Of a DNA stretch of 8,951 bases, positions 1,989-8,851 are shown in pieces. How positions within the stretch are numbered: position 1 is the stretch's first letter; every line of letters begins with the position of its first letter. A model generated the notes under the pieces. That model had not been told where the DNA came from. It made no database searches and was given only the letters and a program-made list of their open reading frames with translations. The DNA comes from a virus (lineage: Duplodnaviria; Heunggongvirae; Uroviricota; Caudoviricetes): positions 1 through 8,951 of IMG/VR virus record IMGVR_UViG_3300029107_000009; one strand, given 5' to 3'. Both the position numbers and the translations under genes were made by a program.

Positions 1989-2002
1989 GCGGGTGCTTGA
2001 GG
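1989..2002 (+). promoter_or_regulatory. Upstream complementary box of the hok mRNA (fold-back inhibition element, 5' partner)
   Basis: GCGGGTGCTTGAGG (1989-2002) can pair antiparallel with CCTCAACGCACCCGC (2365-2379) just before the 3' terminator: 14 bp with a one-nucleotide bulge. Confidence 0.5.
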
Positions 2003-2037
2003 CTATCTGCCTCGGGCATGAACACCAACGGCAGATA

Positions 2038-2111
2038 GAGAAAAGCCCCAGTTAACATTACGCGTCCTGCAAGACGCTTAACATTAATCTGAGGCCCAAT
2101 CTATGCTTCAC
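2038..2111 (-). ncRNA. Candidate Sok-like antisense RNA (boundaries approximate)
   Basis: Minus-strand -35 TTGCCT (forward 2141-2146) and -10 TAACCT (forward 2118-2123) with a 17-nt spacer. The transcript would be antisense to the mok start codon (2103) and its SD. On the minus strand an outer 7-bp stem (forward 2045-2051 with 2089-2095, one G-U pair that is a C-A mismatch on the plus strand) encloses an inner hairpin (forward 2062-2077) and is followed by UUUUCUC. Confidence 0.3.
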
Positions 2112-2315
2112 AAACGTAGGTTAGCCTCTTACGTGCCGAAAGGCAAGGAGAAGCAGGCTATGAAGCAGCAAAAGGCGATGTTAATCGCCCTGATCGTCAT
2201 CTGTTTAACCGTCATAGTGACGGCACTGGTAACGAGGAAAGACCTCTGCGAGGTACGAATCCGAACCGGCCAGACGGAGGTCGCTGTCTTCACAGCTTAC
2301 GAACCTGAGGAGTAA
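2103..2315 (+). CDS. Mok-like ORF: in-frame 19-codon N-terminal extension of hok
   Basis: 70-aa ORF MLHKRRLASYVPKGKEKQA + Hok sequence, in frame with hokD as in chromosomal mok/hok annotations; GAGG lies 10 nt upstream of ATG 2103. Confidence 0.45.
   Translation: MLHKRRLASYVPKGKEKQAMKQQKAMLIALIVICLTVIVTALVTRKDLCEVRIRTGQTEVAVFTAYEPEE
2160..2315 (+). CDS. hokD: Hok-family type I toxin (HokD/RelF-like, 51 aa)
   Basis: Product MKQQKAMLIALIVICLTVIVTALVTRKDLCEVRIRTGQTEVAVFTAYEPEE matches the Hok/Gef family and my recollection of E. coli HokD (RelF). SD AAGGAG at 9 nt; N-terminal TM helix and conserved Cys. Confidence 0.9.
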   Translation: MKQQKAMLIALIVICLTVIVTALVTRKDLCEVRIRTGQTEVAVFTAYEPEE

Positions 2316-4204: not shown

Positions 4205-4564
4205 ATGCGTATAGAGTTTGTTTTGCCTTACCCGCCGACGGTGAATACCTACTGGCGACGTCATGGCAATACGTATTTCATCTCGGAGGCCGGAAAGCGT
4301 TATCGCCATGATGTGGCGCTAATTGTTCGCCAGCAGCGGTTGAAATTAAACCTGTCCGGAAGGCTGGCGATAAAGATTATTGCAGAGCCACCGGATAAGC
4401 GCCGTCGTGACCTGGACAATATCCTGAAAGCACCACTAGATGCGCTGACGCATGCCGGACTACTCATAGACGACGAGCAGTTTGATGAAATCAATATTGT
4501 GCGCGGTCAGCTCGTTCCTGGTGGGCGGCTGGGGATAAAAATCACAGAACTGGAGTGCGCATGA
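4205..4564 (+). CDS. rusA: RusA-type Holliday junction resolvase (119 aa)
   Basis: Product contains PDKRRRDLDN..LDALTHAG, closely resembling the RusA acidic catalytic-core motif (PDRRRRDLDN..FDALTKAG as I recall it). AAGAGG at 6 nt from ATG 4205. Confidence 0.85.
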   Translation: MRIEFVLPYPPTVNTYWRRHGNTYFISEAGKRYRHDVALIVRQQRLKLNLSGRLAIKIIAEPPDKRRRDLDNILKAPLDALTHAGLLIDDEQFDEINIVRGQLVPGGRLGIKITELECA

Positions 4565-5250
4565 ATAACCAGTATTTACAGTTTGTGCGTGAGCAGCTCA
4601 TTATCGCCACCGCTGATTTGAGTGGGGCAACAAAAGGTCAGCTTGAAGCCTGGCAGGAGAATGCCATGTTCGATACAGGGCGTTACAGGCGAAAAAAAAT
4701 CCGGTACCGCGATGAAGTGACTGGAAAAATGATAACGCGGAATAATCAACCAATCCCGGGAAAGCAATCGCTGGCGAAGGGGACGTCAATTCCTCTGGTC
4801 AGTCCGGTTGAGTTTTCGACATCATCGTGGCGGCGGGCTGTTCTGTCTCTTGAAGAACATCATAAAGCCTGGTTGTTGTGGTGTTACAGCGGGAGTATTT
4901 GTTGGGAATATCAGATCGCTATAACACAGTGGGCGTGGAATGAATTTAATACTCAATCCGGTACCAGAAAAATTGCAGGGAAAACGCAGGAACGCCTGAA
5001 AAAATTAATCTGGCTGGCGGCGCAGGCAGTAAAAGCAGAACTTTTTGGTGGGGAAGGTTATGAATACCAGGATCTGGCATTACTGGCGGGAGTGACAACT
5101 AAAAACTGGTCCAAAACATTTACTCGTCACTGGGTTGCAATGAAACACATTTTTCAACGACTGGATAGTGAGGCTTTATTGTTTGTAATGAGAACACGTT
5201 CAAAACAAAAGGCGGCATTTTCAAAGCAAAATGTTGCAAAAGTAGATTGA
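4561..5250 (+). CDS. Putative late-gene antiterminator Q-like protein (229 aa from ATG 4561)
   Basis: ATG 4561 overlaps the rusA stop (ATGA) with GGAG at 5 nt. Lies immediately upstream of a strong promoter plus terminator and the lysis genes, which is the canonical Q position. Assignment is positional; no Q family motif recognised with certainty. Confidence 0.55.
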   Translation: MNNQYLQFVREQLIIATADLSGATKGQLEAWQENAMFDTGRYRRKKIRYRDEVTGKMITRNNQPIPGKQSLAKGTSIPLVSPVEFSTSSWRRAVLSLEEHHKAWLLWCYSGSICWEYQIAITQWAWNEFNTQSGTRKIAGKTQERLKKLIWLAAQAVKAELFGGEGYEYQDLALLAGVTTKNWSKTFTRHWVAMKHIFQRLDSEALLFVMRTRSKQKAAFSKQNVAKVD

Positions 5251-5460: not shown

Positions 5461-5536
5461 GGCCCTTTAGCTCAGTGGTGAGAGCGAGCGACTCATAATC
5501 GCCAGGTCGCTGGTTCAAATCCAGCAAGGGCCACCA
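5461..5536 (+). tRNA. tRNA with CAU anticodon, ileX/ileZ-like (Ile2 type after lysidine modification, or elongator Met)
   Basis: 76 nt; acceptor GGCCCTT/AAGGGCC; D-arm GCTCAGTGGTGAGAGC; anticodon loop CTCATAA; T-loop TTCAAAT; encoded CCA. Resembles E. coli ileX from memory. Confidence 0.8.
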
Positions 5537-5537
5537 A

Positions 5538-5614
5538 CCGCCACTAGCTCATCAGGAAAGAGCGTCAACCCTTTAAGTTGAGTGTGCGAGGTTCGAGTCC
5601 CCGGTGGCGGTCCA
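5538..5614 (+). tRNA. tRNA-like gene with atypical anticodon loop CCTTTAA (anticodon UUU if canonically numbered, but C at position 33)
   Basis: 77 nt; acceptor CCGCCAC/GTGGCGG; anticodon stem TCAAC/GTTGA; T-loop TTCGAGT with one A-C mismatch in the T-stem; encoded CCA. Confidence 0.55.
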
Positions 5615-5616
5615 GT

Positions 5617-5692
<76 letters not shown>

Positions 5693-5695
5693 TAT

Positions 5696-5770
<75 letters not shown>

Positions 5771-6155: not shown

Positions 6156-6400
6156 ATTCCTTTCTCAGAACAAAAAAAGACACGAGCATCCAGGAATACT
6201 CGTGGGACAACGTCCTTTGGATAGCAATTTGCGAGAGGGTGAAAAGTAGCGCGGTCGTCGGATTAAGACCGCGGGACAAAGTCCATGAAGAATAATAAGT
6301 ATTGGCCCCCTTCCGGGGACATGTTCATACTACTAAGCTTCAGAAGTGGTTTAAATACTCAAATTAACCTTAATTTCCGATAAGTCTTATTTCATTTCTT

Positions 6401-6503
6401 TGCGCCACATCTGGCGCGCATCAAATAACGCCACGCAAAGGGCATCTGCGGATGCCGGTGCTTTTGACGGGGTGTTTTTACGGGCCGCTGGTGGCCCTTT
6501 TTT
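6401..6503 (+). promoter_or_regulatory. Structured leader upstream of the holin gene: three consecutive GC hairpins, the last followed by a T-tract
   Basis: Hairpins TGCGCCA-CATC-TGGCGCG (6401-6418), GGCATC-TGCG-GATGCC (6441-6456) and GGGCC-GCTGGT-GGCCC + TTTTTT (6482-6503), directly before the holin RBS. Confidence 0.4.
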
Positions 6504-6522
6504 ATTTACAGGAGAAAAAAGT

Positions 6523-6915
6523 ATGTCTGAACCCTTATCCGGTTCCGGCACGGCTGCGGCGCTCGGTGGGGCGACGGTGTACGGGCTGTTTACCGGAACG
6601 GATTTCGGGATTGTGTTTGGTGCGTTCGCCGGGGCGTTATTTGTGGCAACGATGCCGCAGGCGCTTTCAGCCTGGCGTGTGGCAGCACATTTTCTGGTGT
6701 CGTTCATTATCGGCGTTCTGGGCGCAGAAGTTCTGGCATCCTGGCTGGTAAAGCATACAGGGTTTGACGGTGCACCTGTCGACGCATTGTGTGCAGTACT
6801 GGTGTCAGTGGTGTCGGTGAAGATTCTCTCGTTCATCCACCAGCAGGATATAGCATCACTGGTGTCCGGTCTGTTCTCCCGCCTGCGGGGCGGAGGAGGC
6901 GGCAATGTTAAGTAA
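6523..6915 (+). CDS. Putative holin (130 aa, multi-TM membrane protein)
   Basis: ATG 6523 with AGGAG at 8 nt. Product has several Gly/Ala-rich hydrophobic segments and a charged C-terminus; first gene of a three-gene lysis cassette. Confidence 0.65.
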   Translation: MSEPLSGSGTAAALGGATVYGLFTGTDFGIVFGAFAGALFVATMPQALSAWRVAAHFLVSFIIGVLGAEVLASWLVKHTGFDGAPVDALCAVLVSVVSVKILSFIHQQDIASLVSGLFSRLRGGGGGNVK

Positions 6916-7180
6916 CCTTCCTGGATTGCTGAATGTGGCGTTATGCACGGTTATCGTGCTGACGCTCTTTTTTTATCGTCGCCGTGATTCCAGACATAAA
7001 CCGCTGGTGTCATGGCTGGCCTGGCTGCTGATGCTGCTTTATGCCTTTGCACCACTCAGCTATCTGTGTGGTCGCCCGTTAGCAACGGGCTGGCTGGAAG
7101 TGTTTTTTAACCTGCTGTTCTGCGTGCTGGTAATACGCGCACGCGGGAACGTCACAAAAATCTTTCCATTGTTGAGGTGA
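6905..7180 (+). CDS. Membrane protein of the lysis cassette (91 aa, about three TM segments)
   Basis: ATG 6905 with GGAGGAGG at 5 nt, overlapping the holin stop by 11 nt; hydrophobic product; stop overlaps the endolysin start region. Confidence 0.6.
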   Translation: MLSNLPGLLNVALCTVIVLTLFFYRRRDSRHKPLVSWLAWLLMLLYAFAPLSYLCGRPLATGWLEVFFNLLFCVLVIRARGNVTKIFPLLR

Positions 7181-7182
7181 AT

Positions 7183-7560
7183 ATGTCGGGTAAATTCAGA
7201 TTCAGCCGTCGCAGTGAAAAAAATCTGGAGGGCGTCAAACCACAGCTGGTTGCTGTCGTTCGCCGTGCGCTGGAGCTGACGGAGGTTGATTTCGGTATTA
7301 CGGAAGGCCTGCGCAGTAAGTATCGCCAGAAACAGCTGGTCGCGGAAGGGAAAAGCCAGACCATGAACAGCCGCCACCTGACCGGTGATGCTGTGGATGT
7401 TGTGGCTTATGTTGGCAGCCAGGTGTCATGGGACTGGCCTCTGTACGAGAAAATCGCGCAGGCATTTAAGCAGGCTGCCGCAGAGCTGGGGACTGCCATC
7501 GAATGGGGCGGGGACTGGAAAACACTGAAAGACGGACCTCACTTTCAGTTGAAACGATAA
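7183..7560 (+). CDS. Endolysin, peptidase M15 (VanY / L-alanyl-D-glutamate peptidase-like), 125 aa from ATG 7183 (alternative GTG 7177)
   Basis: Product carries SRHLTGDAVDV, which matches the zinc-binding SxHxxGxAxD signature of M15-type cell-wall peptidases; GAGG upstream; follows the holin-like genes. Confidence 0.75.
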   Translation: MSGKFRFSRRSEKNLEGVKPQLVAVVRRALELTEVDFGITEGLRSKYRQKQLVAEGKSQTMNSRHLTGDAVDVVAYVGSQVSWDWPLYEKIAQAFKQAAAELGTAIEWGGDWKTLKDGPHFQLKR

Positions 7561-7572
7561 GCAAAACAAAAC

Positions 7573-7600
7573 CCCCGCAGCTGGAACAGTCCGGGGTTTT
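7573..7600 (+). terminator. Probable terminator after the endolysin gene
   Basis: CCCCG...CGGGG stem with a 14-nt loop followed by TTTT; weaker than the other terminators in the window. Confidence 0.4.
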
Positions 7601-7831
7601 TAGTTTTCACGCCATGAAAAGGAACAATAAGTTGCAAAACAGCATGAGGTGAGGAAATTGTGAACAGTGAGTACGGGGAAAATCCTCGTGGGAAAGTATA
7701 AAAGATTCTTTTTGAGGTTGTCCATTATGAAAGGTATTGAAGTGGAAACTCCCGCGAGCCTTGATTTGACAAGGGCTGCGGCCTTTGCATGGCGGTCGCT
7801 GTTCTGATTTGGGCTGTGCGTTGGTGGTGAC

Positions 7832-8014
7832 ATGAGCAGAAAACACTGGACACACAGAATGCCTCGAGCGGCGGCGAAAAGGGCACTGGTAGCGATACTG
7901 GTGCCTTTTTTATTGGTGGGCTGCGTTAGCCTGGATAAGGCGCGCCAACTTTTAGATACAGCTTCTCAGGTCTGCAAAATTGTCGACAGTGTCCAGCAGT
8001 GTATGCAGAACTGA
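7832..8014 (+). CDS. Small lipoprotein (60 aa precursor; lipobox LVGC; 30-aa mature peptide with three Cys)
   Basis: ATG 7832; basic N-terminus, hydrophobic stretch LVAILVPFLLVG, then Cys: a signal peptidase II-type pattern. No overlapping Rz-like ORF. Confidence 0.5.
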   Translation: MSRKHWTHRMPRAAAKRALVAILVPFLLVGCVSLDKARQLLDTASQVCKIVDSVQQCMQN

Positions 8015-8041
8015 GCTTTGCATTTGGATGGTGCGAGTAAC

Positions 8042-8067
8042 AAAAAACGGTCAATTGACCGGTTGAT
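8042..8067 (-). terminator. Rho-independent terminator for the minus-strand gene (perfect palindrome, possibly bidirectional)
   Basis: CGGTCAATTGACCG palindrome (8048-8061) followed on the minus strand by UUUUUUG, 12 nt after the minus-strand stop codon. Confidence 0.6.
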
Positions 8068-8073
8068 TAGCGT

Positions 8074-8253
8074 TTAACGTTTGCTGTCTGGAGTTCGTTT
8101 TACAGGTACCCATGTAGCACCCGGCTTTGATGTCGGGGGAGCCGTATGGTTATCAGGAATGGTGGTGTAATTGTTTGTCGTGCCACCACGTGGGCCTTGT
8201 TGACGGTAAACGCCACCATCTTTGCCACTATTTTCACCTGGTTTTAAAGCCAT
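8074..8253 (-). CDS. Hypothetical Gly/Pro/Thr-rich hydrophilic protein (59 aa), opposite-strand moron
   Basis: ATG at 8253 on the minus strand with AGGGA SD at 7 nt; own terminator; product MALKPGENSGKDGGVYRQQGPRGGTTNNYTTIPDNHTAPPTSKPGATWVPVKRTPDSKR. The track's longer ORF to 8322 starts at TTG with no SD. Confidence 0.5.
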   Translation of the reverse strand: MALKPGENSGKDGGVYRQQGPRGGTTNNYTTIPDNHTAPPTSKPGATWVPVKRTPDSKR

Positions 8254-8414
8254 GCTAGTCCCTTTTATTAAAGTCACGATTGTGTGACAAGGTGAGTATT
8301 GGTCGTATAAGTGAAAAGACAAGATGAAATTTTTTCATGAGCCATCTGTTAGTTCATCTTAAGCACATTCTGGAAATGTGAGCTGATATTTACGGGAGTT
8401 AGAGGAAATTAACA

Positions 8415-8765
8415 ATGCCCCTGCGAACCCCAAAAGTCTGCCGTGTTCGCGGTTGCCGCCATACCACGACTGACCCGTCAGGCTACTGCGAAAGCCACAA
8501 AAGCGAAGGCTGGAAGCAATACAAACCTGGACAATCCCGTCATCAGCGCGGCTACGGTTCGAAGTGGGACAGTATCCGCGTGCGCATATTGAAGCGTGAC
8601 AAAGGCCTGTGTCAGTTATGTCTGCGTGCTGGTGTGGTGCGTGAGGCGAAAACCGTTGACCACATCATCCCTAAAGCGCATGGCGGCACTGATGCCGACA
8701 GTAATCTGCAGAGTCTGTGCTGGCCGTGTCATAAGGCGAAGACGGCCCGTGAATGGCTGAAGTAA
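8415..8765 (+). CDS. HNH endonuclease (116 aa), packaging-associated type
   Basis: Product has CxxC...HK...DHIIPKAHGGTDADSNLQSLCWPCHKAK, a classic HNH motif. GAGGAA SD. Sits immediately upstream of the terminase small subunit, as in HK97-like phages. Confidence 0.85.
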   Translation: MPLRTPKVCRVRGCRHTTTDPSGYCESHKSEGWKQYKPGQSRHQRGYGSKWDSIRVRILKRDKGLCQLCLRAGVVREAKTVDHIIPKAHGGTDADSNLQSLCWPCHKAKTAREWLK

Positions 8766-8791: not shown

Positions 8792-8851
8792 GGGGCGGGT
8801 CAAATCCCTGTGACCTGACGTCTTCCGGACTGCCCGCCCCATCGTTTTTTT
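8792..8851 (+). repeat. GC-rich inverted repeat (GGGGCGGG ... CCCGCCCC) followed by a T-tract; candidate cos/packaging element or terminator
   Basis: 8-bp perfect inverted repeat (8792-8799 with 8833-8840) separated by 33 bp, then ATCGTTTTTTT; lies between the HNH and terminase genes. Confidence 0.4.

What the first reader, a model, noticed from the sequence alone, without database searches (positions are those of the whole stretch)
8042..8414. Opposite-strand moron at the classical bor position encoding a Gly/Pro/Thr-rich 59-aa protein
The only convincing minus-strand gene in the window has its own SD, a perfect-palindrome terminator and divergent placement relative to the HNH gene, which are hallmarks of an independently expressed moron. 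The product is hydrophilic and low-complexity with no signal peptide, and matches nothing I can name. Lambda carries bor on the opposite strand at the equivalent position, so this is a different cargo gene at a known moron site.
Basis: partly seen in the sequence, partly recalled or inferred. Interest (0 to 1): 0.5.

Follow-up and report, generated by a model that had tools for sequence, protein, structure and literature searches.

The report
P22 gene-59a-like (YjzC-like) prophage moron
This is a real 59-codon gene inserted backwards, with its own terminator and probable promoter, between the lysis and DNA-packaging genes of an E. coli phiP27-like prophage; it is a homolog of phage P22 gene 59a and a divergent member of the widespread YjzC-like small-protein family, whose function is still unknown, so the finding is correct but ordinary.

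Summary
A minus-strand ORF (ATG 8253, stop 8074-8076, 59 aa) has an SD and a 14-nt perfect-palindrome hairpin followed by T6. It lies divergent to the HNH gene.

It is under strong purifying selection. Against a Pantoea homolog, pS is 0.95 and pN 0.08.

It does match known proteins:
- It is 61% identical over its full length to phage P22 orf59a (PHROG 3202, E = 5e-23).
- Profile searches and a fold match link it to Pfam PF14168 (YjzC-like).
- UniRef already calls this exact E. coli protein "YjzC family protein".

It is not disordered. AlphaFold2 gives a compact three-stranded β-sheet (pLDDT 84). The protein is basic (pI 10.1).

The roughly 380-bp cassette (8015-8396) is bounded by homology breakpoints and has lower GC than its flanks. 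Related phages carry other cargo in the same slot: phiP27 L33, a YodC-family gene, and other hypothetical genes.

Relatives at 50-88% identity occur as lone genes in other phage moron slots and on small plasmids across Proteobacteria. They have no conserved partner.

Function remains unknown. I infer expression from the resident prophage and a small, probably nucleic-acid-binding, protein. This is a known family in a known kind of site, so interest is low to moderate.

The parts
8015..8396 (.). Extent of the inserted cassette (moron), between two homology breakpoints
   Evidence: phiP27 and Stx2k-phage homology ends at 8014. E. coli/SfV-like prophage homology resumes at 8397-8415. GC is 0.437 against 0.51-0.56 in the flanks.
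8042..8061 (-). Intrinsic-terminator-like element: perfect palindrome CGGTCAATTGACCG (8048-8061) followed by T6 (8047-8042)
   Evidence: The fold is -7.2 kcal/mol, z = -1.65. The sister allele (L002) has an 8-bp stem, -12.7 kcal/mol, z = -4.1. A hairpin plus T-run directly after the stop occurs in 13/33 homologs against 8% of random windows. DNA homology between cassettes runs through it, from +1 to about +212-217.
8074..8253 (-). CDS, 59 aa plus stop: P22 gene 59a homolog, a YjzC-like small basic β-sheet protein
8259..8264 (-). Shine-Dalgarno AAGGGA, 5 nt upstream of the ATG
   Evidence: Sequence read directly.
8273..8288 (.). Inverted repeat GTCAC-N6-GTGAC between the putative promoter and the SD; candidate operator or 5'-terminal mRNA hairpin (weak evidence)
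   Evidence: Similar IRs with half-site G[TC]CACAA lie 17-26 nt before the ATG in several homologs. Arms of at least 6 bp occur in 8/33 loci against 9% of random windows, but a 5-bp IR occurs in 26% of random windows. Fold z-scores are weak.
8295..8322 (-). Putative sigma-70 promoter TTGTCT-16 nt-AATACT (8/12 matches)
   Evidence: Below the scan threshold. The -10 ends 41 nt before the ATG, the same position as stronger promoter-like sites in P22 (36), Pantoea (42), Xenorhabdus (39), Enterobacter (38) and an Acinetobacter plasmid (48).
7832..8014 (+). Left flank: 60-aa lipoprotein gene (phiP27 L32 homolog), last gene of the lysis region
   Evidence: The lipobox LLVGC is read from the translation.
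8415..8765 (+). Right flank: HNH endonuclease gene that precedes cos and the P27-family small terminase

Best explanation
Shown:
- The segment 8015-8396 is a self-contained accessory-gene cassette (a 'moron'). It is inserted in reverse orientation into the variable slot between the lysis genes and the HNH-terminase packaging genes of a phiP27-like E. coli prophage.
- Its single gene encodes a 6.3-kDa basic protein (pI 10.1) that is a homolog of phage P22 gene 59a (PHROG 3202) and a divergent member of the YjzC-like (PF14168) superfamily.
- The protein is under strong purifying selection and is predicted to fold as a three-stranded antiparallel β-sheet with a conserved C-terminal RTPDSKR tail.
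- The same gene travels as a lone unit, without any conserved partner gene. It occurs in the P22 'ant moron', in a P2-like variable slot, on small plasmids and in genomic islands across Proteobacteria.

Inferred:
- It is transcribed from its own weak sigma-70 promoter (8322-8295) and terminated at 8061-8042.
- Q-dependent late transcription runs antisense through it, so it is expressed mainly from the resident, uninduced prophage.
- The product acts alone on a highly conserved cellular target. Given its charge, this is most plausibly nucleic acid or a nucleic-acid machine. The effect would benefit the resident element or its host.
- The short inverted repeat between the promoter and the SD may be a control site.

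My separate confidences:
- identity and moron status: about 0.95
- independent, lysogen-phase expression: about 0.6
- nucleic-acid-binding mode of action: about 0.25
For: Identity:
- 61% identity over 59/59 aa to P22 orf59a.
- PHROG 3202, E = 5e-23.
- A family profile retrieves 100 proteins at E <= 1e-3 from 1.84 billion representatives. Of 25 distant ones, 20 match Pfam YjzC (best 1.5e-11).
- hhalign gives 99.5% probability.
- The top BFVD structural hit is a 'YjzC-like protein' (prob 1.0, TMq 0.68).
- UniRef names the exact protein 'YjzC family protein'.

Real gene:
- pS 0.95 against pN 0.08, and codon-position variability 34/27/57.
- 19-20 invariant residues.

Folded:
- pLDDT 84, with all five models at 81-84.

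Moron status:
- Homology breakpoints at 8014 and about 8397-8415.
- The slot holds other genes in phiP27 (L33), APEC O78 (YodC-family), another E. coli prophage and Salmonella phage 118970_sal3.
- Deviant GC and GC3.
- The exact protein always sits in this slot in 8 independent contigs.
- The P22 homolog lies in the 'ant moron' and is listed there as a gene of unknown function (PMC2629481).

Stand-alone unit:
- 72 Pfam families among 109 neighbouring ORFs, with no recurrent partner.
- Carried on 8-18 kb Acinetobacter plasmids and other plasmids.
- Found in a P2-like gpA-ogr slot.

Signals:
- Terminator and promoter enrichment, and a conserved promoter position.
- ORF-plus-terminator is the unit of DNA homology between cassettes.

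Lysogen expression:
- In P22 the gene lies inside the annotated mnt (maintenance repressor) transcription unit, with the mnt terminator after it.
- The same arrangement occurs in E. coli P22-like prophages.
Against: - No expression data were found for this gene in any phage.
- The window's own promoter match is only 8/12, and its terminator stem is only 5 bp. Neither is above chance on its own.
- The window protein itself gives no Pfam or NCBIfam hit at E <= 10, so YjzC membership is transitive.
- The inverted repeat is statistically weak.
- In P22, sieA alone accounts for the exclusion phenotype of the sieA-orf59a-mnt fragment, so no phenotype is attached to 59a.
Confidence: 0.6

Rival explanations
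1. The product is a small transcription regulator, Cro-like or an autoregulator. It binds the palindrome in front of its own gene or related operators and modulates the resident element's genetic switch.
For: - The protein is basic and 59 aa long.
- A palindrome with a shared half-site G[TC]CACAA lies 17-26 nt before the ATG in several homologs.
- In Acinetobacter and Nitrosospira plasmids and in three MAG loci, the gene sits divergent from an HTH + ImmA/IrrE repressor-protease module, the position a cro or xis gene would have.
- In P22-like phages it follows the Mnt/Arc-family repressor gene.
Against: - The palindrome is absent from most homologs and is barely above chance.
- The protein is 50-88% identical across hosts while the palindromes differ. 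This is odd for a sequence-specific regulator.
- Many copies have no regulator or switch nearby.
Confidence: 0.12
2. It is an anti-defence (anti-CRISPR-like or anti-restriction) protein, expressed from a repressor-controlled promoter of the mobile element.
For: - It is a small single-gene cassette in variable slots of phages and plasmids.
- It has an operator-like palindrome in its promoter region, and an HTH gene is adjacent in some loci. This resembles acr-aca architecture (my knowledge).
- Restriction-modification, Abi and DndB genes are neighbours in some loci.
Against: - Anti-defence proteins are usually narrowly distributed and fast-evolving. This family keeps 50-88% identity from Enterobacteriaceae to Alphaproteobacteria and Desulfovibrio.
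- It has chromosomal YjzC relatives in Firmicutes and Actinobacteria.
- It is basic, not an acidic DNA mimic.
- In P22 it sits in a unit annotated as lysogen-expressed rather than early.
Confidence: 0.1
3. It is a lysogenic-conversion or superinfection-exclusion (defence) factor that protects the lysogen from other phages.
For: - It occupies slots that typically carry such cargo: next to sieA in the P22 ant moron, the P2-like gpA-ogr variable region, and a position analogous to lambda bor.
- It sits next to Abi and R-M genes on the Nitrosospira plasmid.
Against: - There is no match to any PADLOC defence model, for it or for its relatives.
- sieA alone is sufficient for P22 exclusion.
- A 6-kDa soluble protein with no enzymatic motif, no membrane segment and no partner gene is an unlikely stand-alone defence system.
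Confidence: 0.1
4. It is not a functional protein gene: a chance antisense ORF, or a disordered low-complexity peptide with no folded state.
For: - The G/P/T-rich composition looks low-complexity.
- There are no Pfam or NCBIfam hits.
Against: - Purifying selection is strong.
- More than 100 homologs of constant length exist.
- 19-20 residues are invariant.
- The β-sheet model is confident.
- Public pipelines annotate it as a CDS.
Confidence: 0.01

Closest known systems
Phage P22 gene 59a (orf59a; UniProt 'Uncharacterized 6.4 kDa protein in sieA-mnt intergenic region'; PHROG 3202)
   Same: Same length (59 aa), 61% identity with no gaps, and the same conserved motifs: KPGE, GG[IV]Y, GPRGG, PDN, PPT, W, RTPDSK. 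Both are followed directly by an intrinsic terminator, have a promoter-like site 36-41 nt before the ATG, and are cargo of a moron of unknown function.
   Different: The location differs. In P22 the gene lies in the 'ant moron' between genes 16 and 9, co-oriented with and just downstream of the mnt repressor gene. Here it lies alone between the lysis genes and HNH/terminase of a phiP27-like phage, divergent from HNH. The DNA is about 67% identical within the ORF only.
YjzC-like protein family (Pfam PF14168; B. subtilis YjzC; M. tuberculosis Rv1954A)
   Same: Small (about 55-75 aa) proteins sharing the pattern KPGE..G.Y.E.GPRGG...V....PPT..G..W. Distant relatives found with this family's profile are Pfam YjzC members (20/25). 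hhalign gives 99.5%, and the top viral structural match is annotated YjzC-like. Function is unknown in all cases. Rv1954A, like several members here, sits next to an HTH-controlled toxin-antitoxin module (PMC3912914).
   Different: The window protein itself does not reach the Pfam model (no hit at E <= 10). The 59a subfamily has its own features: GG before the aromatic residue, a PDN motif and the C-terminal RTPDSKR tail. It is found on mobile elements of Proteobacteria rather than on Firmicute or Actinobacterial chromosomes.
Lambda bor (opposite-strand lysogenic-conversion gene downstream of Rz)
   Same: It is an opposite-strand, single-gene insert immediately downstream of the lysis cassette with its own signals. 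This is the classic moron arrangement (my knowledge of lambda; the arrangement here is shown).
   Different: There is no sequence or family relationship. Bor is a lipoprotein, whereas this product has no signal peptide or lipobox and no Pfam hit. The host phage is phiP27-like, with HNH + P27-type terminase to the right rather than lambda's cos/nu1.
Other cargo in the same slot of phiP27-like/SfV-like prophages: phiP27 L33, the APEC O78 'YodC family protein', and two hypothetical genes in E. coli muskdeer13-4
   Same: The insertion point is the same, between the lysis region and HNH-TerS(P27). In APEC O78 the cargo is also a roughly 60-aa opposite-strand gene.
   Different: The sequences are unrelated; nothing aligns between the breakpoints. 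phiP27 L33 is on the late-operon strand.

Membership tests
P22 gene 59a family (PHROG 3202) | Full-length significant match to the family profile and to P22 orf59a | tested here: met
   phrog_3202 E = 5.1e-23, residues 1-58 on profile positions 3-61 of 61. tblastn gives 61% identity over 59/59 aa, E = 3e-17, to 53 P22-like phage records.
P22 gene 59a family (PHROG 3202) | Same size and conserved motifs (KPG, GG[IV][YF], GPRGG, PDN, PPT, W, RTPDS) | tested here: met
   Alignments A1 and A2 have 19-20 invariant columns. All homologs are 59-65 aa.
YjzC-like (Pfam PF14168) | Score above the Pfam gathering threshold (25 bits) for the protein itself | tested here: not met
   No Pfam family at E <= 10 for the window protein.
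YjzC-like (Pfam PF14168) | Homology to bona fide members shown by profile or structure (superfamily level) | tested here: met
   The family profile retrieves proteins of which 20/25 match PF14168 (best 1.5e-11). hhalign gives 99.5%, E = 5e-23, which is partly circular. The BFVD top hit is a 'YjzC-like protein', prob 1.0, TMq 0.68, 38% identity. UniRef names the exact protein 'YjzC family protein'.
Moron (Juhala/Hendrix sense) | Present between two genes that are adjacent or differently separated in related phages | tested here: met
   Breakpoints lie at 8014 and about 8397-8415. The slot holds other genes in phiP27, APEC O78, E. coli muskdeer13-4 and Salmonella phage 118970_sal3.
Moron (Juhala/Hendrix sense) | Own terminator | tested here: met
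   Hairpin plus T6 lies 12 nt after the stop. It is weak here (-7.2 kcal/mol), stronger in the sister allele (-12.7, z = -4.1), and conserved in 13/33 homologs against 8% of random windows.
Moron (Juhala/Hendrix sense) | Own promoter | tested here: inconclusive
   The best site, TTGTCT-16-AATACT, scores 8/12, below the scan threshold. Its position matches stronger sites in six homologs, and promoter-like sites are enriched 3-5 fold in the family.
Moron (Juhala/Hendrix sense) | Base composition different from the flanks | tested here: met
   Cassette GC is 0.437 against 0.51-0.56. ORF GC3 is 0.34 against 0.57-0.61 in the neighbours.
Moron (Juhala/Hendrix sense) | Expressed from the repressed prophage | not testable with these tools
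   Support is indirect only. The P22 homolog lies inside the annotated mnt transcription unit. No transcript data were found.
Lambda Bor lipoprotein | Signal peptide with lipobox and a match to the Bor family | tested here: not met
   No Pfam hit. The sequence is hydrophilic, has no Cys and has no N-terminal hydrophobic segment.
   No Pfam family at E <= 10.
Known anti-phage defence systems (PADLOC) | Match to any defence-system component model | tested here: not met
   No hit at E <= 1 for the protein, P22 59a, five relatives or the alternative slot cargo genes.

The most novel reading that the evidence does not exclude
The 59a/YjzC-like proteins may be a pan-proteobacterial class of small effectors borne by mobile elements. 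They would bind a universally conserved host machine, such as the ribosome, RNA polymerase or the nucleoid. In some elements they would be released by an XRE/ImmA-IrrE or TA-type HTH switch. This would be a new mode of host manipulation or anti-defence shared by phages and plasmids. The conserved C-terminal RTPDSKR tail would be the docking motif.
Probability: 0.12. Interest if true: 0.6.

Novelty: already known. Interest (0 to 1): 0.22.

Why it matters
In itself it matters little. It adds one more example of a moron slot with exchangeable cargo, and it corrects the impression that the gene is an orphan.

The wider point is that a 59-aa protein first seen in P22 decades ago is kept at 50-88% identity on phages, plasmids and islands across Alpha-, Beta-, Gamma- and Deltaproteobacteria. 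It always occurs as a lone gene carrying its own terminator and often a promoter-like site, and it still has no known function or solved structure.

That degree of conservation in a stand-alone mobile-element gene implies a conserved target. This makes P22 gene 59a an easy and genetically tractable entry point for finding out what YjzC-like proteins do.

Tried and rejected
- Pfam and NCBIfam on the protein itself gave nothing. The KGG-repeat and Bor ideas were dropped.
- PADLOC defence models gave nothing.
- Profile searches of PDB sequences did not recover 4h4n or anything significant.
- The afdb50 library was unavailable.
- A search for a conserved partner gene failed. Neighbours of 28 non-redundant loci fall in 72 Pfam families.
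- The only recurrences are positional or occasional: HNH upstream in 4-5 lineages; phrog_1365 downstream in 5 prophages; HTH + ImmA/IrrE in about 5 lineages.
- The 82-aa TTG-start reading was rejected on homolog starts.
- The upstream inverted repeat as an RNA structure was not supported. Individual folds are not significant, and a 5-bp IR is common by chance.
- One further near-copy of the IR, at 8799-8814 near cos, is within chance.
- Rfam found no RNA family at the cassette.
- The literature reports no function or expression data for orf59a/59a or YjzC.

Full report
**The observation**

The window's right end reads, on the + strand:
- Q antiterminator (4555-5250)
- four tRNAs (5461-5770)
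- two holins (6400-6915, 6905-7180)
- an M15 endolysin (7177-7560)
- a 60-aa lipoprotein gene (7832-8014)
- an HNH endonuclease (8415-8765) followed by the start of the packaging genes

Between the lipoprotein gene and HNH, on the minus strand, lies an ORF listed as 8074..8322 (82 aa from TTG). The following features are all as described:
- an AAGGGA Shine-Dalgarno at 8264-8259
- the perfect palindrome CGGTCAATTGACCG at 8048-8061
- a T6 run at 8047-8042, 12 nt past the stop codon

The product has 8 Gly, 8 Pro and 8 Thr, GRAVY -1.27 and pI 10.1.

**It is a real gene, and the ATG at 8253 is its start**

The exact protein occurs on many public contigs (89 index blocks). In all eight places inspected it lies in this same slot.

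Thirty-four further loci from one genome per species encode relatives at 51-88% identity. They include Pantoea, Enterobacter, Citrobacter, Serratia, Xenorhabdus, Vibrio, Pseudomonas, Pasteurellaceae, Betaproteobacteria, Alphaproteobacteria, Desulfovibrio relatives and two MAG lineages.

All are 59-65 aa and start just before the conserved KPG motif.

Against the homologs that are 83-88% identical in protein, synonymous sites are saturated (pS 0.76-0.95) while pN is 0.08-0.12. Variable alignment columns fall 34/27/57 on codon positions 1/2/3. Nineteen to twenty residues are invariant.

**What the protein is**

Pfam and NCBIfam give no hit for the protein itself. It is nevertheless a full-length member of PHROG 3202 (E = 5e-23). 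It is 61% identical, without gaps, to orf59a of phage P22 and 52 other P22-like phage records.

A profile of the family, searched against 1.84 billion representative proteins, finds 100 relatives at E <= 1e-3. Of 25 distant ones, 20 are bona fide Pfam PF14168 'YjzC-like' proteins. Supporting evidence:
- Profile-profile comparison gives 99.5% probability, though this is partly circular.
- The best structural match among predicted viral proteins is annotated 'YjzC-like protein' (prob 1.0, TMq 0.68).
- UniRef already calls this exact E. coli sequence 'YjzC family protein'. The P22 protein is 'Uncharacterized 6.4 kDa protein in sieA-mnt intergenic region'.

So the gene is not an orphan. It belongs to a known family of unknown function.

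**It is not disordered**

With 18 close homologs, AlphaFold2 gave pLDDT 68. With 54 diverse relatives it gave pLDDT 84, and all five models were at 81-84. The model is a three-stranded antiparallel β-sheet (strands 14-19, 25-32, 47-53).

**It is a moron in a variable slot**

The late region is that of phiP27: holin L28, holin L29, endolysin L30, L31, L32 (the lipoprotein), L33, HNH L34, cos, TerS L35.

DNA homology to phiP27 and a Stx2k phage ends exactly at the lipoprotein stop codon (8014). Homology to SfV/SfI/ST64B-like phages and to 1415 of 5426 complete E. coli genomes begins at 8397-8415. Nothing between aligns.

Other elements carry different cargo in the same slot:
- phiP27 carries L33, 115 aa, on the late strand.
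- E. coli APEC O78 carries an opposite-strand 60-aa 'YodC family protein'.
- Another E. coli prophage carries two opposite-strand hypothetical genes.
- Salmonella phage 118970_sal3 carries two same-strand hypothetical genes.

The cassette is also compositionally foreign. Its GC is 0.44 against 0.51-0.56 in the flanks, and its GC3 is 0.34 against 0.57-0.61.

**Transcription signals**

In this window alone the signals are weak:
- The terminator stem is 5 bp (-7.2 kcal/mol, z = -1.65). A sister allele differing by one base has an 8-bp stem (-12.7 kcal/mol, z = -4.1).
- The best promoter match, TTGTCT-16-AATACT at 8322-8295, scores 8/12 and is below the scan threshold.

Comparison across loci supports them:
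- A hairpin plus T-run follows the stop codon directly in 13 of 33 non-redundant homologs, against 8% of random windows.
- Promoter-like sites at >= 9/12 occur upstream in 7 of 42 loci, against 3.5% of random windows.
- In six unrelated contexts the -10 element ends 36-48 nt before the ATG. These are the window, P22, Pantoea, Enterobacter, Xenorhabdus and an Acinetobacter plasmid. In the window the distance is 41 nt.
- Between cassettes in unrelated contexts, DNA homology covers the ORF and the terminator (+1 to about +212-217). In P22 against Xenorhabdus it starts at -42.

A short inverted repeat (8288-8273) lies between the putative -10 and the SD. Similar repeats with half-site G[TC]CACAA occur at the same distance in several homologs. 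Statistically this is only suggestive.

**Where else the gene travels**

- In P22 and in 115 of 5426 complete E. coli genomes, a diverged copy lies in the 'ant moron' of P22-like prophages. It sits directly downstream of, and co-oriented with, the Mnt/Arc-family repressor gene.
- The ε34 genome paper lists '59a' as one of two genes of unknown function in that moron (PMC2629481).
- In P22 the annotated mnt terminator follows orf59a, which implies expression with the maintenance repressor.
- A plasmid carrying sieA, orf59a and mnt excludes P22, but sieA alone suffices.
- Other members lie in the gpA-ogr variable slot of an Aeromonas P2-like prophage.
- Others lie on 8-18 kb Acinetobacter plasmids and on Shewanella, Nitrosospira and Polaromonas plasmids. 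A 40%-identical relative lies on roughly 5-kb mobilizable Enterobacter/E. coli plasmids.

Neighbours are otherwise heterogeneous: 72 Pfam families among 109 ORFs. The recurrences are:
- an HNH gene upstream, a positional effect of the same slot in HK97-like prophages
- phrog_1365 downstream in five prophages
- a divergent HTH + ImmA/IrrE module in about five lineages
- toxin-antitoxin modules nearby. This echoes M. tuberculosis Rv1954A, a YjzC-like gene at the head of the HigA-repressed higBA operon (PMC3912914).

No PADLOC defence model matches.

**How it most likely works**

Shown: it is a lone, horizontally mobile cassette encoding a strongly conserved, folded, basic 6-kDa protein.

Inferred:
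- It is transcribed from its own weak promoter.
- Q-antiterminated late transcription must cross it antisense to reach HNH and the terminase genes. It should therefore be expressed mainly when the late operon is silent, that is, from the resident prophage. This is consistent with the P22 arrangement.
- Conservation across very different hosts, together with the absence of any partner gene, argues for a direct interaction with a conserved cellular component. The charge makes nucleic acid the first guess.

The rivals are a small regulator acting on the palindrome, an anti-defence protein, and an exclusion factor. None is excluded, and none has direct support.

**Verdict**

The gene is not an orphan, not low-complexity in the structural sense, and not new. 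It is a known family of unknown function sitting in a known kind of site. Interest is low to moderate. The residual curiosity is the unexplained, unusually strong conservation of this tiny mobile-element protein.

Noticed in passing
window 1991-2315: A hok/sok type I toxin-antitoxin locus. Rfam sok (RF01794) scores 113 bits at 1991-2165. The ORF at 2103-2315 ends in a typical Hok/Gef sequence, and homologous genes in sister loci carry Pfam HOK_GEF. Its antisense RNA would be another opposite-strand element in the window.
   Followed up: partly
window 5461-5770: Four tRNA genes (Met-CAT, Lys-TTT, Thr-TGT, Gly-TCC) lie in tandem between the Q antiterminator gene and the holins. In phiP27 the stx2e genes lie just upstream of the same lysis cassette. 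This looks like a stx-less phiP27-like prophage.
   Followed up: no
window 7832-8014 (and the 7561-7831 gap): A 60-aa lipoprotein (lipobox LLVGC; phiP27 L32 homolog) is the only spanin-like gene after the endolysin. No i-spanin was recognised, and there is a 270-nt apparently non-coding gap before it. Sister loci of the L002 type lack most of this gap.
   Followed up: no
L050 2056-2238 (E. coli APEC O78, NC_020163.1): The same lysis-HNH slot holds a different opposite-strand 60-aa gene annotated 'YodC family protein'. So two unrelated families of roughly 60-aa proteins are used as cargo at one site. There is no PADLOC hit.
   Followed up: partly
L001 3181-3407 (P22) vs L025 (Xenorhabdus hominickii prophage): DNA homology between P22 and a Xenorhabdus prophage extends about 230 nt beyond the orf59a terminator. 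In Xenorhabdus this stretch is the 3' part of a convergent phrog_1365 gene. In the P22 RefSeq record it is unannotated; the ε34 paper mentions a gene 'hkcC' in this moron. It may be a gene or a gene remnant.
   Followed up: no
L010 4975-5000, L011 4975-5000, L044 4975-5000; window 8254-8293: In several homologs the SD lies in a small hairpin with an upstream CCUC/CCUU anti-SD: CCCUUAAGGG, CCUCUCGGAGG, ACCUAUGGGGGU. In the window's minimum-energy fold CCUU pairs with AAGG of the SD. This may be translational damping. It was not tested statistically.
   Followed up: no
window 8799-8814: A near-copy (1 mismatch) of the cassette's inverted repeat, GTCAAATCCCTGTGAC, lies between HNH and the small terminase gene, close to where phiP27 has cos. 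It is within chance expectation.
   Followed up: partly
L052 5628-7133 (Acinetobacter plasmid), L054 1653-3171 (Nitrosospira plasmid 2), L017, L019, L042: The family member is divergently adjacent to an HTH + ImmA/IrrE (Peptidase_M78) pair or fusion in about five independent lineages. This suggests that in those elements it is the first gene released by a repressor-protease switch.
   Followed up: partly
window 8048-8061 vs L002 6190-6210: The window's terminator allele differs from that of sister contigs by one base (GACCGT vs GACCGG). This shortens the stem from 8 to 5 bp and lengthens the U-tract.
   Followed up: yes
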